Shown here one piece after another: positions 61,505 to 63,811 of a stretch of DNA of 64,000 bases (position 1 is the first letter of the stretch; each line of letters opens with the position of its first letter). Under the pieces are notes generated by a model. It did no database searches, was not told where the DNA came from, and saw only the letters and a list, made by a program, of their open reading frames with translations. The DNA is from Escherichia phage ukendt. The position numbers and the translations under genes are program-made. The DNA is taken from the sequence record NC_052661.1; one strand, 5' to 3'.

Positions 61505-61512
61505 ATAACTAT

Positions 61513-62099: not shown

Positions 62100-62128
62100 T
62101 TGACAACTAACACTATTTTATGTTAGAT
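62100..62128 (+). promoter_or_regulatory. promoter TTGACA-N17-TTAGAT inside tRNA cluster
   Basis: hexamers 62100-62105 and 62123-62128, immediately before tRNA-Ser. Confidence 0.5.
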
Positions 62129-62137
62129 TATAAGCAT

Positions 62138-62225
62138 GGAAGGGCAAATCGACGTGGCGACGAAAACGGTCTTGAAAACCGCCGAGCTTGAAAGAGCCTT
62201 GGGAGTTCGACTCTCCCTCCTTCCG
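62138..62225 (+). tRNA. tRNA-Ser (anticodon TGA), class II
   Basis: acceptor GGAAGGG, loop CUUGAAA, long variable arm, discriminator G, CCA encoded; D-arm irregular. Confidence 0.7.
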
Positions 62226-62232
62226 CCAGATT

Positions 62233-62315: not shown

Positions 62316-62448
62316 CCAAGTTCTTTTTAATGTAGCTTACTTTAGCAGAGTAAATCTTCGGCAAGTGGCGGTAACCACTTTACCGATACCTCATAGTTAG
62401 TGGTGTGAACACTGGCTATTTTAAAAAGAATTTAAATATTAGTATTTA

Positions 62449-62533
62449 GGTGAGTTAATTCCGTAGGGGTAGCGGGGCAGACTGTAAATCTGTTATCATT
62501 GCGATTCGGGTGGTTCGACTCCATCACTCACCA
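62449..62533 (+). tRNA. tRNA-Tyr (anticodon GTA), class II
   Basis: loop CTGTAAA, long variable arm, discriminator A; 5-nt spacer between acceptor and D-stem is atypical. Confidence 0.65.
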
Positions 62534-62542
62534 CCAAATTAA

Positions 62543-62625
62543 GATGAGTTGGCTGAATGGTTTAAGCGGCGGACTGTTAATCCGTGTTCGAAAGAACAAT
62601 ATAGGTTCGAATCCTATACTCATCG
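62543..62625 (+). tRNA. atypical tRNA: Ser-type class II body with anticodon GTT (Asn codons)
   Basis: acceptor GATGAGT/ACTCATC, 3-bp D-stem, stem GCGGA/TCCGT, loop CTGTTAA, 15-nt variable arm, discriminator G. Confidence 0.6.
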
Positions 62626-62635
62626 CCAGAATTAT

Positions 62636-62711
62636 GGACTTGTAGAGTTAAGGTAAACCCCCAGTCGCCAATAGGCTTCTGGAATTGCAGGTATCGAATC
62701 CTGCCGAGTCC
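62636..62711 (+). tRNA. tRNA-like element (acceptor and T-arm pair, anticodon arm not foldable); possible pseudo-tRNA
   Basis: GGACTTG/CGAGTCC acceptor pairing and GCAGG..CCTGC T-stem with 8-nt loop; no canonical anticodon stem found. Confidence 0.25.
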
Positions 62712-62718
62712 CAGCATT

Positions 62719-62790
62719 GCTCCTATAGTATAATGGCTATTACAACGGTTTTGTAATCCGTGGATCTCTGTTCGATTCAGTGTGGGAGCA
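62719..62790 (+). tRNA. tRNA-Thr (anticodon TGT)
   Basis: acceptor GCTCCTA/TGGGAGC, loop TTTGTAA, T-loop TTCGATT; a few stem mismatches. Confidence 0.65.
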
Positions 62791-63065
62791 CCAACACAAC
62801 ATTAAGAGCACTGTGATTGATCGTCGTATCCTGTGCACAAGGTCTGCTCGAAAGACAGTGTTCTTAGTATTGTGTTGATCACAAAAAGAGTCACCCGAAA
62901 CTTGACCGGAGTAGGGTTGGATGGGGCAAAATGAGAAGCGGCTCTCCCATCGACAGCAACGAAGAATAATATTTGACTTTGGTTTTGTATTATTTAAGTT
63001 AGCTTACCGAACGTAGGGCTAGTCACCCAACGGGATACTCGTCACTGTCCCAATCAATAAAAGTC

Positions 63066-63095
63066 TTGACAACAAATAGTAAAATGTAGTATAGT
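63066..63095 (+). promoter_or_regulatory. promoter TTGACA-N18-TATAGT before tRNA-Gly
   Basis: hexamers 63066-63071 and 63090-63095. Confidence 0.5.
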
Positions 63096-63106
63096 AAAGA
63101 TATAGG

Positions 63107-63177
63107 GCGTTCTTGGTGTAGCGGTAGCATTCCGTCCTTCCAAGTCGGCGGCACGAGTTCGATCCTCGTAGAACGCT
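63107..63177 (+). tRNA. tRNA-Gly (anticodon TCC)
   Basis: acceptor GCGTTCT/AGAACGC, loop CTTCCAA, T-arm ACGAG-TTCGATC-CTCGT, discriminator T; D-arm weak. Confidence 0.6.
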
Positions 63178-63277
63178 CCAAATTATTTAATAAAGGGTTG
63201 CCAGAAAACTTTCTCTTTTACTCATGGTTTTCTCCTTCTCTCACACTTCTTCTGGTTGCCCTTCATTAAATGATTTT

Positions 63278-63350
63278 TGGTTTGTAGTGTAGTCCGGTAG
63301 CACACGACACTTTGACTGTCGTAGGTTTGGTTCAAATCCAGACAGACCAG
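63278..63350 (+). tRNA. tRNA-Gln (anticodon TTG)
   Basis: U1-A72 start, stem CGACA/TGTCG, loop CTTTGAC, discriminator G, CCA encoded. Confidence 0.75.
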
Positions 63351-63358
63351 CCATATAA

Positions 63359-63432
63359 CGGAATTTAGCTCAGTTTGGTAGAGTGTACGCTTTGGGAGCG
63401 TATTGTCGCAGGTTCGAATCCTGCAATTCCGA
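63359..63432 (+). tRNA. tRNA-Pro (anticodon TGG)
   Basis: acceptor CGGAATT/AATTCCG, stem TACGC/GCGTA, loop TTTGGGA, T-arm GCAGG-TTCGAAT-CCTGC. Confidence 0.8.
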
Positions 63433-63441
63433 CCAATTAAA

Positions 63442-63512
63442 TGTTTCGTAGTTCAATGGTAGAACCCACGACTGATAATCGTGAGACACAAGTTCGATTC
63501 TTGTCGAAACAA
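63442..63512 (+). tRNA. tRNA-Ile (anticodon GAT)
   Basis: acceptor TGTTTCG/CGAAACA, D-stem GTTC/GAAC, stem CACGA/TCGTG, loop CTGATAA. Confidence 0.75.
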
Positions 63513-63517
63513 CCAGT

Positions 63518-63587
63518 TTCCCGTTAGACTTACAGGATAAGAGTTCCACAGCTTATTGTGATGCTGGTTCGAATCCAGCACGGGATA
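63518..63587 (+). tRNA. tRNA-like element with canonical T-arm but non-canonical anticodon arm; possible pseudo-tRNA
   Basis: T-arm GCTGG-TTCGAAT-CCAGC and acceptor pairing present; only a 5-bp stem with 4-nt loop (CACAG-CTTA-TTGTG) found. Confidence 0.3.
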
Positions 63588-63593
63588 CATAAT

Positions 63594-63669
63594 AGCGGGA
63601 TAGAGGAGTCTGGTCGTCCTCGCCAGTTTCATATGCTGGAGATCATTGGTTCAAATCCGATTCCCGCCT
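63594..63669 (+). tRNA. tRNA, anticodon CAT, initiator-like (1:72 mismatch, T-loop TTCAAAT)
   Basis: acceptor AGCGGGA/TCCCGCC with A1-C72 mismatch, D-stem GAGG/CCTC, stem CCAGT/GCTGG, loop TTCATAT. Confidence 0.6.
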
Positions 63670-63787
63670 CCAAATATCGCTTGCCAGCGGTATCTTTGAA
63701 GACCTTGCCTGGTTCCTTCTAAGATGGAGGGGTGCGACTCCTTAACGCACAATTATAATAAAGCATTTCAAATTAACAGTATTTATT

Positions 63788-63811
63788 AGCCTCCTTATTG
63801 GAGGCTTTTTG
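63788..63811 (+). terminator. rho-independent terminator AGCCTCC-TTATT-GGAGGCT-TTTT
   Basis: perfect 7-bp stem plus T-tract after tRNA cluster. Confidence 0.75.

What the first reader, a model, noticed from the sequence alone, without database searches (positions are those of the whole stretch)
62636..63587. Two tRNA-like elements with intact acceptor/T-arms but unfoldable anticodon arms
Elements at 62636-62711 and 63518-63587 pair at the acceptor stem and have TTCGAAT-type T-loops, yet no 5-bp stem with 7-nt loop can be formed in the anticodon region (the second has CACAG-CTTA-TTGTG, a 4-nt loop). They may be decaying tRNA genes, tRNA-derived regulatory RNAs, or tRNAs with non-standard loops.
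Basis: seen in the sequence. Interest (0 to 1): 0.45.

Follow-up and report, generated by a model that had tools for sequence, protein, structure and literature searches.

The report
Anticodon-less tRNA mimics in phage
Two tRNA-shaped genes in the tRNA cluster of an E. coli phage have no usable anticodon loop; one belongs to a large, apparently undescribed family of phage tRNA look-alikes, so it is probably a working non-coding RNA and not a dead tRNA gene.

Summary
Both elements are real. ARAGORN at default settings and Rfam's tRNA model reject them, and no GenBank relative I inspected annotates them. The window is the tRNA cluster of a Phapecoctavirus (a phAPEC8-like E. coli myophage).

Element A (62636-62711) is not a decaying tRNA.
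- It is among the best-conserved features of the cluster. It is 96-100% identical across two genera, while its flanking tRNAs are only 74-77% identical.
- It is a minimal member of a large phage-borne family of anticodon-less tRNA mimics that I could not find described.
- The family has a 7-bp acceptor stem, U8, a tRNA-Leu-type D arm, U48, and a T arm with an 8-nt loop (YAUCRAAY).
- The anticodon/variable region is replaced by anything from a 19-nt to a ~195-nt insert.
- A covariance model built without any relative of this phage finds A as the top hit in the window (39 bits, E~1e-8).

Element B (63518-63587) is a separate, lineage-restricted tRNA derivative. It has canonical D and T loops, but its anticodon loop is closed into a hairpin. 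It is conserved in some Vequintavirinae with compensatory changes, but it also shows signs of relaxed constraint.

Function is untested. I infer trans-acting, non-decoding tRNA mimicry.

The parts
62636..62711 (+). Element A: 76-nt anticodon-less tRNA mimic, a minimal member of the 8-nt-T-loop family (discriminator C62712, no encoded CCA)
   Evidence: Sequence. Fold z = -3.68. Model R1 gives 39.1 bits, E~1e-8, with exactly these ends. No ARAGORN or Rfam call.
62636..62642 (+). A: acceptor stem 5' strand GGACUUG (pairs with 62705-62711)
62645..62660 (+). A: D arm GAGUU-AAGGUA-AACCC (one A.C mismatch). The loop AAGGUA is shared with family member L061.
62661..62682 (+). A: hairpin that replaces the anticodon arm: CCAG-UC-GCC-AAUA-GGC-UU-CUGG. 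The third tetraloop position varies U/G/A in relatives. The C-run just before the hairpin varies in length.
62687..62704 (+). A: T arm GCAGG-UAUCGAAU-CCUGC with the 8-nt loop that defines the family. It is preceded by the invariant U48 (62686).
62705..62711 (+). A: acceptor stem 3' strand CGAGUCC
63518..63587 (+). Element B: 69-nt tRNA-like body plus discriminator A63587. D and T loops are canonical and the anticodon loop is closed. The trailer is ACAU here and ACCU in relatives.
   Evidence: Rfam tRNA model gives 24.6 bits, below the cut-off of 29.
63527..63545 (+). B: D arm GACU-UACAGGAUAAG-AGUU
63547..63560 (+). B: 14-nt hairpin CACAG-CUUA-UUGUG in place of the 17-nt anticodon arm. In Vequintavirinae it is 17 nt with a 6-7-bp stem and a 3-5-nt loop.
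63563..63579 (+). B: canonical T arm GCUGG-UUCGAAU-CCAGC
62100..62129 (+). Sigma-70-like promoter (TTGACA-18-TAGATT, extended -10) upstream of the Ser-Ser-Tyr-Asn-A-Thr stretch
   Evidence: a consensus match only.
63066..63095 (+). Sigma-70-like promoter (TTGACA-18-TATAGT, 11/12) upstream of Gly-Gln-Pro-Ile-B-Met
   Evidence: a consensus match only.
63788..63806 (+). Intrinsic-terminator-like hairpin plus U run that closes the tRNA cluster
   Evidence: It is annotated as a terminator in MZ726793.

Best explanation
Both elements are genes for stable tRNA-shaped RNAs that do not decode. They are transcribed as part of the phage tRNA operons.

Element A
- A is a minimal member of a large phage-borne family derived from tRNA-Leu.
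- The family keeps the tRNA core: a 7-bp acceptor stem, U8, A14, the A15:U48 Levitt pair, a 3-bp class-II D stem and a 5-bp T stem.
- The family has an altered elbow: a T loop of 8 nt (YAUCRAAY) and usually a D loop without G18G19.
- Nothing resembling an anticodon arm remains. That position carries an arbitrary insert, which in A is a 22-nt hairpin.

Inferred steps (not shown)
- RNase P and 3' trimming excise the RNA like its tRNA neighbours.
- The RNA folds into an L shape and acts in trans through its tRNA-like body.
- It occupies a conserved bacterial factor that normally binds tRNA. My preferred guess is a decoy or competitor for a tRNA-directed host enzyme or defence nuclease.
- The altered elbow and the missing anticodon keep it out of translation.

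Element B
- B is an independent, narrow-range case of the same idea.
- It is a tRNA whose closest relative is the phiEB49 'tRNA-Val(AAC)'. Its anticodon loop has been closed into a tight hairpin while the rest of the cloverleaf is kept.
- In Phapecoctavirus it is partly degenerate: it has a U.U at 1:72 and its CCA has decayed to ACCU or ACAU.
For: Shown
- Structure and coordinates.
- Rejection by tRNA predictors.
- Position inside promoter-to-terminator units that hold the tRNAs.

Conservation of A
- A is 96-100% identical in 11 loci of two genera, while the flanking tRNA-Asn and tRNA-Thr are 74-77% identical. The conserved block ends within a few bases of the element.

The family
- The exact T-arm 18-mer occurs in 98 IMG/VR contig stretches, almost all with the same architecture.
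- An independent scan with the D-arm 18-mer recovers the 8-nt T loop in 23 of the 24 cases where my simple search resolves a T arm plus matching acceptor strand. The T stems in these cases are varied.
- There are 87 distinct members.
- Only 1 of 312 distinct ARAGORN tRNAs in the same 1.56 Mb has that loop.
- 63 of 78 members have no tRNA within 1.5 kb, so they are not debris of tRNA clusters.
- On a 42-sequence alignment, 98.9% of cells are paired, 12 of 15 pairs show double changes, and the structure far exceeds the slid controls.
- U8, G10, A14, A15 and U48 are invariant.
- Model R1, built without Stephanstirmvirinae, puts A first in the window at 39.1 bits. Class-II tRNAs score at most 25.5 bits.
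- Members occur in cultured Lactobacillus phage SAC12B and cyanophage S-CAM9.
- They also occur in roughly a dozen bacterial genomes or MAGs from several phyla.

Element B
- B is 79-83% identical in Vequintavirinae A7_1 and UPEC06, where most tRNAs of this cluster have no detectable match.
- There are compensatory changes at 3:70 (C-G to U-A) and 49:65 (G-C to A-U). The 1:72 pair is restored, and the hairpin is kept although its length differs.
Against: - No expression, processing or binding data exist. The decoy step is pure inference.
- No conserved neighbouring gene points to a partner.
- Some family members encode NCCA (about 14 of 87 against about 1.4 expected). The 3' end may therefore matter, and aminoacylation is not excluded.
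- High identity of A between genera could partly reflect recombination and not only selection.
- Acceptor pairing, U8 and the T-arm pattern were selection criteria for family members. Part of the pairing statistic is therefore by construction.
- Within Phapecoctavirus, B shows A11.A24 in 3 of 7 sequences, A49.C65 in 1 of 7 and G18A in 1 of 7. Its identity (93-100%) is slightly below its flanking tRNAs (96-100%), which is compatible with decay.
Confidence: 0.55

Rival explanations
1. Processing or scaffold role. The tRNA-like bodies are there only to be recognised by RNase P and 3' processing enzymes. They would punctuate polycistronic transcripts, or act as a nuclease-resistant chassis for whatever is inserted at the anticodon or D-loop position. 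In minimal members such as A the chassis would be 'empty'.
For: - Inserts are extremely variable, from 19 to about 195 nt in the members I could parse (whole elements 67-246 nt). They sit at two defined positions, the anticodon region and the D loop.
- One member has a whole tRNA nested in its insert.
- One phage has a 49-nt internal duplication inside A.
- A and B occupy ordinary tRNA slots, 2-7 nt from their neighbours.
Against: - A has no cargo, yet it is among the most conserved features of the cluster, including its hairpin stem.
- 63 of 78 members stand alone, with no tRNA nearby and no constant neighbouring gene.
- Ordinary tRNAs would serve as punctuation, so the altered elbow would be unexplained.
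Confidence: 0.2
2. Decaying tRNA pseudogenes with no function.
For: - Neither element has an encoded CCA, while all 12 tRNAs of the cluster do.
- B has a 1:72 mismatch, stem-weakening polymorphisms and a trailer that looks like a decayed ACCA: ACCU or ACAU here, against ACCA in phiEB49.
- B evolves slightly faster than tRNA-Ile and tRNA-Met2.
- B has a narrow distribution.
Against: - For A: extreme conservation, family membership, covariation, and occurrence mostly away from tRNA clusters.
- For B: it is retained at 79-83% identity in another subfamily, with compensatory changes and a perfect 7-bp acceptor followed by CCA there.
Confidence: 0.12
3. CCA is added post-transcriptionally and the RNAs are aminoacylated by a synthetase that ignores the anticodon, for example LeuRS given the tRNA-Leu-type D arm. 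They would then serve as aminoacyl donors or sinks outside normal decoding.
For: - The family D arm is the tRNA-Leu D arm with UUGG replaced by GA. Compare GGCGGAAUUGGUAGACGC of the RHph_TM40 tRNA-Leu and of member L071.
- NCCA is about ten-fold enriched after the acceptor stem, and 10 of those 14 have A73.
- The B homologues in Vequintavirinae end in CCA.
Against: - The discriminator is not conserved in the family. In A it differs between genera: C in Phapecoctavirus and A in Justusliebigvirus.
- From my own knowledge, G18G19 contribute to LeuRS recognition in E. coli. They are usually absent in the family.
- A and B lack CCA in a genome whose tRNAs all encode it.
Confidence: 0.08
4. They are decoding tRNAs with unusual anticodon loops. 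A would be tRNA-Leu(CAA) with a 4-bp stem and C33.
For: ARAGORN at 80% threshold calls A tRNA-Leu(caa). The family is tRNA-Leu-derived.
Against: - A has C33 instead of U33.
- Position 37 varies U/G/A, and C31 changes to A, among >96% identical relatives.
- The length of the C-run linker varies.
- A has an 8-nt T loop, a 9-nt 'variable loop' in the ARAGORN drawing, and no CCA.
- Other minimal family members have quite different loops, for example UUCG in S-CAM9.
- B has a 3-5-nt loop everywhere.
Confidence: 0.03
5. They are Y RNAs (YrlA-type) that tether a Ro60/Rsr protein.
For: - A Y-RNA-like array upstream of a TROVE gene in Rhizobium phage RHph_TM40 contains one unit with the same 8-nt T loop and a GG-less D loop.
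- One family member lies ~1 kb upstream of a TROVE-like gene.
Against: - A and B are not circularly permuted and have open acceptor stems.
- The Ro-binding motif GNCGAAN0-1G is not enriched in family inserts (2 of 59 against 2.5 expected).
- There is no TROVE homologue in the 64-kb window.
- There is no Rfam YrlA match to A or B.
- The Rfam YrlA consensus has a 7-nt T loop and a GG D loop (bioRxiv 10.1101/312249).
Confidence: 0.02

Closest known systems
YrlA (bacterial and phage Y RNA-like A) tRNA-like module, Rfam RF02553
   Same: - It is an anticodon-less L-shaped tRNA mimic.
- It has U8, the Levitt pair and a T arm.
[quoted passage not shown]
- One phage Y-RNA-like unit carries the very same 8-nt T loop.
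   Different: - YrlA is circularly permuted (T arm, then a closed 'acceptor' hairpin, then the D arm).
- Its ends lie in a Ro60-binding helix, and it is encoded next to rsr/TROVE.
- It has a 7-nt T loop and G18G19.
- A has normal tRNA topology, an open acceptor stem, an 8-nt T loop, no Ro-binding motif and no TROVE gene in the window.
tmRNA tRNA-like domain
   Same: The architecture is the same: acceptor stem plus D region, a large insert where the anticodon arm would be, then a T arm and the acceptor 3' strand. It is processed by RNase P.
   Different: - tmRNA has G3:U70 alanine identity, ACCA, no D stem, a 7-nt T loop, pseudoknots and a tag reading frame.
- None of these is present in A or B.
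- ARAGORN finds no tmRNA in the window, and Rfam gives no tmRNA match to A or B.
Phage T4 stable RNAs species 1 and 2 (rnaC, rnaD)
   Same: They are non-tRNA stable RNAs encoded inside a phage tRNA cluster. rnaC carries a T arm near its 3' end. As far as I know their function is still unknown.
   Different: - There is no sequence or model similarity: R1 finds nothing in the T4 region.
- They are 119-139 nt long and have a canonical 7-nt T loop.
Phage-encoded tRNAs that counter tRNA-cleaving defences (T5 tRNA-Tyr against retron-Eco7; T6 tRNA-Tyr against Septu)
   Same: They are phage tRNA-cluster genes whose value lies in resisting, replenishing or titrating host tRNA nucleases (PMC13096335; bioRxiv 10.1101/2023.03.15.532788).
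   Different: Those are complete, decoding tRNAs. A and B cannot decode, so they could act only as decoys, which is untested.
Non-canonical tRNAs (allo-tRNA, tRNAPyl, mitochondrial tRNAs)
   Same: They have altered elbows: a D loop without G18G19 and a non-standard T loop (PMC7609411).
   Different: All of them keep a 7-nt anticodon loop and decode.

Membership tests
Canonical tRNA (Rfam RF00005) | 7-bp acceptor stem followed by U8 | tested here: met
   A has 7 bp including one G.U. B has 6 bp plus a U.U at 1:72. Both have U8-A9.
Canonical tRNA (Rfam RF00005) | 5-bp anticodon stem with a 7-nt loop carrying U33 and a purine at 37 | tested here: not met
   The exhaustive scan finds none in B. 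In A it finds only a 4-bp stem with loop GCCAAUA (C33, U37). Relatives vary at position 37 and at stem position 31.
Canonical tRNA (Rfam RF00005) | T arm of 5 bp with a 7-nt loop UUCRANY | tested here: inconclusive
   B meets it (GCUGG-UUCGAAU-CCAGC). A does not, because its loop is the 8-nt UAUCGAAU.
Canonical tRNA (Rfam RF00005) | Score at or above the Rfam gathering threshold (29 bits) or an ARAGORN call at default settings | tested here: not met
   A has no match at E<=10. B scores 24.6 bits. ARAGORN calls neither at 100%, 95% or 90% threshold.
Canonical tRNA (Rfam RF00005) | Encoded 3' NCCA, as in every other tRNA of this cluster | tested here: not met
   A is followed by CAGC and B by ACAU. 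All 12 tRNAs of the cluster end in NCCA.
8-nt-T-loop tRNA-like RNAs of phages (family defined here, model R1) | T arm of 5 bp with an 8-nt loop YAUCRAAY, preceded by U48 | tested here: met
   A has U-GCAGG-UAUCGAAU-CCUGC. B does not have this.
8-nt-T-loop tRNA-like RNAs of phages (family defined here, model R1) | 7-bp acceptor, U8, and a class-II-type D arm with A14 and A15 (consensus GCG-GAAGAUAGA-CGC; variants include GCG-UAAGGUAA-CGC) | tested here: met
   A has GAGUU-AAGGUA-AACCC, the same loop as member L061, with one A.C mismatch in the stem.
8-nt-T-loop tRNA-like RNAs of phages (family defined here, model R1) | No anticodon arm; a variable insert lies between the D arm and U48 | tested here: met
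   A has a 22-nt hairpin plus AAU. Parsed family inserts range from 19 to about 195 nt.
8-nt-T-loop tRNA-like RNAs of phages (family defined here, model R1) | Significant score to a covariance model built without close relatives | tested here: met
   A scores 39.1 bits, E~1e-8, and is the top hit in 64 kb. B scores 10.3 bits, E 1.4, so it is not a member.
YrlA / Y RNA | Permuted order: T arm, closed acceptor-like hairpin, D arm, with the ends in a Ro60-binding helix | tested here: not met
   A and B have the normal tRNA order and open acceptor stems. There is no Rfam YrlA match to either.
YrlA / Y RNA | Ro60/TROVE gene nearby | tested here: not met
   tblastn of a phage TROVE-like protein against the window gives nothing (best E 7.1). 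Related GenBank records annotate no TROVE gene near the cluster. The rest of the ~150-kb genome lies outside the window and was not searched.
tmRNA | G3:U70, a tag reading frame, pseudoknots and ACCA | tested here: not met
   The 3:70 pair is A-U in A and C-G in B. ARAGORN's tmRNA search is negative.
T4 rnaC / rnaD | Homology to the T4 species 1 or 2 RNAs | tested here: not met
   R1 finds nothing in T4 68.5-73.5 kb. The sequences are unrelated by eye.
tRNA-processing substrate (RNase P, CCA-adding enzyme) | Cleavage at position +1 by RNase P; CCA addition | not testable with these tools
   Inferred only from the acceptor/T-arm minihelix and the position in the operon.

The most novel reading that the evidence does not exclude
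Element A is the E. coli-phage representative of a previously undescribed non-coding RNA family. The family occurs in phages of many bacterial phyla, and the E. coli phage makes it experimentally tractable. It is a tRNA-Leu-derived L-shaped mimic with a re-engineered elbow (an 8-nt T loop) and a free 'cargo' position. It would act on a universal tRNA-binding host factor, for example as a decoy for tRNA-directed defence nucleases or as an adaptor like the tRNA module of Y RNAs.
Probability: 0.4. Interest if true: 0.8.

Novelty: new variant of a known kind. Interest (0 to 1): 0.62.

Why it matters
Phage tRNA genes have recently been linked to escape from tRNA-cleaving defence systems, and bacterial Y RNAs carry a tRNA-like module whose partner is still unknown.

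A family of tRNA mimics that cannot decode is widespread in phages and keeps an invariant, unusual elbow. This suggests that phages exploit tRNA shape for something other than translation.

The family is absent from Rfam 15. It is unannotated in every GenBank relative I inspected, and I found it in no paper in the searchable library.

Phapecoctaviruses such as phAPEC8, ESCO13 and the MG1655-infecting isolates grow on E. coli K-12. The function is therefore directly testable by deletion, pull-down and plating on defence-system libraries.

On the practical side, annotation pipelines currently leave these genes blank.

Tried and rejected
- Rfam at gathering and permissive thresholds, on the window and on 28 family loci, found no family for A or its relatives. 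The only weak nearby hits were manA, YrlA and tmRNA_permuted, none on the elements themselves.
- Six literature searches were run, including searches for the literal motifs GGUAUCGAAUCC and GGCGGAAGAUAGACGC. No description of the family was found.
- Neighbour-gene analysis was done for a protein partner. A first clustering suggested terL and terS downstream (21 and 12 of 161 loci). The genes immediately downstream of 8-nt-loop members are heterogeneous, so no partner emerged.
- The Ro60-binding motif is not enriched in family inserts, and there is no TROVE gene in the window.
- BLAST for the D arm in cultured phages gave only chance hits.
- Scans for more relatives of B in IMG/VR and JGI metagenomes found only two contigs each. 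At least three of the four are already-known relatives, so covariation for B rests on 10 sequences.
- A global MAFFT alignment of the cluster was unusable because of indels. I replaced it by per-feature BLAST.
- ARAGORN with introns allowed gives no call. At 80% threshold it gives a forced Leu(caa) for A and a meaningless shifted fold for B.
- T4 rnaC and rnaD were checked as possible homologues. They are not.
Full report
CONTEXT

The last 2.3 kb of the window is a tRNA cluster on the + strand.
- ARAGORN finds 10 tRNAs between 61752 and 63672.
- Rfam adds tRNA-Tyr(GTA) at 62449-62533 and a tRNA-Ser(TGA) at 62138-62224.
- Megablast places the window in Phapecoctavirus (Stephanstirmvirinae), the phAPEC8-like ~150-kb E. 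coli myophages, at 98-99% identity to many isolates.
- None of the relatives' GenBank records I inspected annotates anything at the two positions in question.
- Consensus promoters lie at 61512, 62100 and 63066, and a terminator lies at 63788-63806, all on the + strand. Both elements therefore sit inside the transcription units that make the tRNAs.
- Both occupy ordinary tRNA slots a few bases from their neighbours: Asn-[A]-Thr and Ile-[B]-Met.
- No ORF longer than 59 aa overlaps them.

THE OBSERVATION

Element A (62636-62711) has these parts:
- a 7-bp acceptor stem, then U8-A9
- a D arm GAGUU-AAGGUA-AACCC
- a 22-nt irregular hairpin CCAG-UC-GCC-AAUA-GGC-UU-CUGG
- AAUU
- a T arm GCAGG-UAUCGAAU-CCUGC

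The T loop of A has eight nucleotides, not the seven of UUCGAAU.

Element B (63518-63586, discriminator A63587) has these parts:
- a 6-bp acceptor stem plus a U.U at 1:72
- a normal D arm with GG
- a 14-nt hairpin CACAG-CUUA-UUGUG where 17 nt of anticodon arm should be
- a 2-nt variable region
- a canonical T arm

Tests of the observation:
- MFE folding returns these shapes, with z = -3.68 for A and -2.58 for B.
- An exhaustive search for stems around a 7-nt loop finds nothing in B. In A it finds only a 4-bp stem AGUC/GGCU around GCCAAUA, which has C33 and U37.
- ARAGORN calls neither element at default, 95% or 90% thresholds, or with introns allowed. At 80% it forces A into 'tRNA-Leu(caa)' and B into a shifted, meaningless fold with a 4-base 'anticodon'.
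- Rfam gives A no match to any of its 4227 families even at E<=10.
- Rfam gives B 24.6 bits to tRNA, below the cut-off of 29, and only by jumping over the anticodon arm.
- All twelve genuine tRNAs of the cluster are followed by NCCA. A and B are not.

ELEMENT A IS UNDER STRONG CONSTRAINT

I BLASTed each feature of the cluster against 13 related loci.
- A is 96-100% identical in Phapecoctavirus and also in Justusliebigvirus (AV123, Serratia phage KKP_3264, and an IMG/VR contig).
- In Justusliebigvirus the tRNA-Asn and tRNA-Thr on either side of A are only 74-77% identical.
- The block of identity ends within a few bases of the element.

The few differences among relatives are informative.
- The third base of the hairpin tetraloop varies: AAUA, AAGA or AAAA.
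- A C-to-A change turns a C.U mismatch of the internal loop into an A-U pair.
- One T-stem G-C becomes G.U.
- The C-run linking the D arm to the hairpin varies from 4 to 6.
- The discriminator is C in one genus and A in the other.

These changes fit a hairpin. They do not fit an anticodon loop, a fixed position 26, or an aminoacylation identity.

ELEMENT A BELONGS TO A LARGE FAMILY

How the family was found:
- The exact 18-nt T arm occurs in 98 stretches of IMG/VR contigs.
- Almost all of these share one architecture. It consists of a 7-bp acceptor stem, U-G/A, a D arm with consensus GCG-GAAGAUAGA-CGC, a variable insert, an invariant U, the T arm with the 8-nt loop, and the 3' acceptor strand.
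- The D arm is the tRNA-Leu D arm with UUGG replaced by GA. Compare the genuine tRNA-Leu of phage RHph_TM40, GGCGGAAUUGGUAGACGC, and family member L071, which still has that sequence.

Why this is not an artefact of the seed:
- I scanned independently with the D-arm 18-mer.
- My simple search could resolve a T arm plus a matching acceptor strand in 24 of those hits. Of these, 23 have an 8-nt loop YAUCRAAY, on ten different T stems.

Other family properties:
- In all, 87 distinct members were collected, with whole elements 67-246 nt long. In the members whose D arm I could parse, inserts range from 19 to about 195 nt.
- Some members also carry a hairpin inserted in the D loop.
- One member has a complete tRNA nested in its insert.
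- Of 312 distinct tRNAs that ARAGORN finds in the same 1.56 Mb, 281 have the canonical T loop and only one has the 8-nt loop. That one is a dubious call on a family member.
- 63 of 78 members outside this phage group have no tRNA within 1.5 kb.
- The genes immediately downstream are heterogeneous. These are therefore free-standing genes, not debris of tRNA clusters.

Covariation on a 42-sequence alignment with no relative of this phage:
- U8, G10, A14, A15 and U48 are invariant.
- 98.9% of cells pair, 12 of 15 pairs show changes on both sides, and slid controls pair at about 40%.
- Caveat: acceptor pairing, U8 and the loop pattern were my selection criteria. The D arm, U48 and T-stem variation were not.

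Membership of A:
- The class-II tRNAs Ser and 'Asn' come next at 25.5 and 24.3 bits. Other tRNAs score 17 bits or less. B scores 10.3 bits, E 1.4.

Distribution:
- R1 also finds members in cultured Lactobacillus phage SAC12B.
- It finds a member in cyanophage S-CAM9. This is a 66-nt minimal form with a UUCG hairpin, lying between tRNA-Leu and tRNA-Thr.
- The T-arm 18-mer occurs in only 24 of 185,579 species genomes. About half of those are full-length R1 hits, some tandem, across several bacterial phyla. I assume these are prophages.

ELEMENT B IS A DIFFERENT THING

Distribution:
- Homologues of B exist only in Phapecoctavirus and in four unclassified Vequintavirinae: A7_1, A73, W70 and UPEC06.
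- There is a more distant match to the 'tRNA-Val(AAC)' of siphophage phiEB49. It has the same unusual D arm and a 7-nt loop UUAACAA.
- Pattern scans of IMG/VR and JGI metagenomes added nothing new.

Evidence for constraint:
- In A7_1 and UPEC06 the arm is 17 nt long, the canonical length. However, it folds as a 6-7-bp stem with a 3-5-nt loop (CACAACGUAUCGUUGUG).
- The acceptor stem there is a perfect 7 bp and is followed directly by CCA.
- Pairs 3:70 and 49:65 have changed on both sides.
- B is 79-83% identical between the subfamilies, whereas most tRNAs of the cluster have no detectable counterpart there.

Evidence for relaxed constraint within Phapecoctavirus:
- B is slightly less conserved (93-100%) than the flanking tRNA-Ile and tRNA-Met2 (96-100%).
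- It carries variants that weaken the D stem (A11.A24 in 3 of 7), the T stem (A49.C65 in 1 of 7) and G18 (1 of 7).
- Its trailer, ACCU or ACAU, looks like a decayed ACCA.

Taken together, B is a conserved tRNA derivative whose anticodon loop was closed before the two subfamilies exchanged or inherited it. Whether it is still functional in this phage is uncertain. I put about 25% on decay for B alone.

WHAT IT IS LIKE

The nearest described thing is the tRNA-like module of bacterial and phage Y RNAs (YrlA).
- YrlA is an anticodon-less L-shaped mimic. [quoted passage not shown]
- A real link exists. Upstream of the TROVE/Ro60 gene of Rhizobium phage RHph_TM40 lies an array of Y-RNA-like units. 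The first unit carries GUAGG-UAUCGAAU-CCUGC and GUC-UAAGAUAG-GAC in the permuted YrlA order.
- One family member lies 1 kb upstream of a TROVE-like gene.

A is nevertheless not a Y RNA.
- Its topology is that of a tRNA.
- The Ro-binding motif is not enriched in family inserts.
- The window has no TROVE homologue.
- The Rfam YrlA consensus has a 7-nt T loop and a GG D loop.

The architecture (acceptor and D region, insert, T arm, acceptor) is also that of tmRNA, but none of tmRNA's defining features is present. T4's species 1 and 2 RNAs are a historical precedent for unexplained stable RNAs inside a phage tRNA cluster, but they are not homologous.

HOW IT PROBABLY WORKS

Shown:
- the gene structure
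- its conservation
- the family and its covariation
- its placement in tRNA transcription units
- its inability to offer a standard anticodon loop

Inferred:
- excision by RNase P and 3' trimming, because the acceptor/T-arm minihelix is intact
- an L-shaped fold, because the U8-A14, A15-U48 and T-loop U-A positions are conserved
- action in trans through the tRNA-like body

The minimal members (A, S-CAM9, and several metagenomic ones) carry no cargo, and A at least is highly conserved. I therefore think the core itself is the active part. It would be a mimic that occupies a conserved bacterial tRNA-binding factor. The altered elbow would either create the specific binding surface or keep the RNA away from the translation machinery.

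A decoy for tRNA-directed defence nucleases is my preferred concrete version. Recent work shows that phage tRNA genes counter such systems (PMC13096335; bioRxiv 10.1101/2023.03.15.532788). Nothing here tests this version.

The main rivals are a pure processing or scaffold role, aminoacylation after CCA addition (NCCA is about ten-fold enriched among members), and, for B, plain decay.

NOVELTY AND VERDICT

The individual elements are unannotated and the family is absent from Rfam 15. Six full-text searches, including literal motif searches, found no description. The library is incomplete, so earlier description under another name cannot be excluded.

I rate the finding as a new variant of a known kind (tRNA mimics). 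Interest is above average because the family is widespread, its elbow is invariant and unusual, and this phage offers an E. coli K-12 system in which to test it.

Noticed in passing
window 62543-62628: The gene annotated everywhere as tRNA-Asn(GTT) has a class-II shape: a 12-nt extra arm, a Leu/Ser-like D arm GCU-GAAUGGUUUA-AGC, and G73. This is unusual for tRNA-Asn and raises the question of which synthetase charges it.
   Followed up: no
window 62138-62227 and 62449-62536: ARAGORN at default settings misses tRNA-Ser(TGA) and tRNA-Tyr(GTA). Rfam scores them 37.4 bits (to the tRNA-Sec model) and 39 bits. tRNAscan-SE calls both in MZ726793, and some records flag the Tyr gene as a pseudogene.
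   Followed up: partly
window 62319-62448 (homologue L004 ~2190-2330): A conserved structured non-tRNA RNA lies between tRNA-Ser and tRNA-Tyr. It is closed by an 11-bp helix (z = -3.2). It is 68-99% identical in all relatives where a match is detected, including Vequintavirinae.
   Followed up: partly
window 62794-62875: A long, nearly perfect hairpin (about 20 bp, z = -2.98) lies downstream of tRNA-Thr, in the 313-nt gap before the promoter at 63066.
   Followed up: partly
L110 1260-1381 (Escherichia phage MirsaeidiM_Esher1): Element A carries a 49-nt internal tandem duplication, so the D arm and hairpin are present twice. This is a natural example of how inserts in this family may grow.
   Followed up: no
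IMG/VR loci L113-L176 (e.g. L113, L114, L123, L136, L160): A second set of RNAs has the same acceptor stem and the same GCG-GAAGAUAGA-CGC D arm. In place of the T arm it has a 6-bp hairpin with loop UGARAGU. In the pooled neighbour analysis of all loci, terS and terL were the commonest downstream genes. These RNAs are also absent from Rfam.
   Followed up: partly
L204 1455-2640 (Rhizobium phage RHph_TM40): An array of about eight Y-RNA-like units lies upstream of a TROVE/Ro60 gene. Two units match Rfam YrlA at 36-37 bits. The first unit has the 8-nt T loop and a GG-less D loop in permuted order.
   Followed up: partly
L119 2720-2866: A family member whose insert contains a complete tRNA, which ARAGORN calls tRNA-Val(aac) at 2766-2838.
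   Followed up: no
window 63353-63359 versus L003 3357-3451: Several relatives have a ~90-bp insertion between tRNA-Gln and tRNA-Pro, and some records list a second tRNA-Pro.
   Followed up: no
window 63594-63672: The last 'tRNA-Met(CAT)' is 79 nt long, has a mismatch at 1:72 and scores only 47 bits. Some records flag it as a pseudogene and another calls the first CAT tRNA tRNA-Ile.
   Followed up: no
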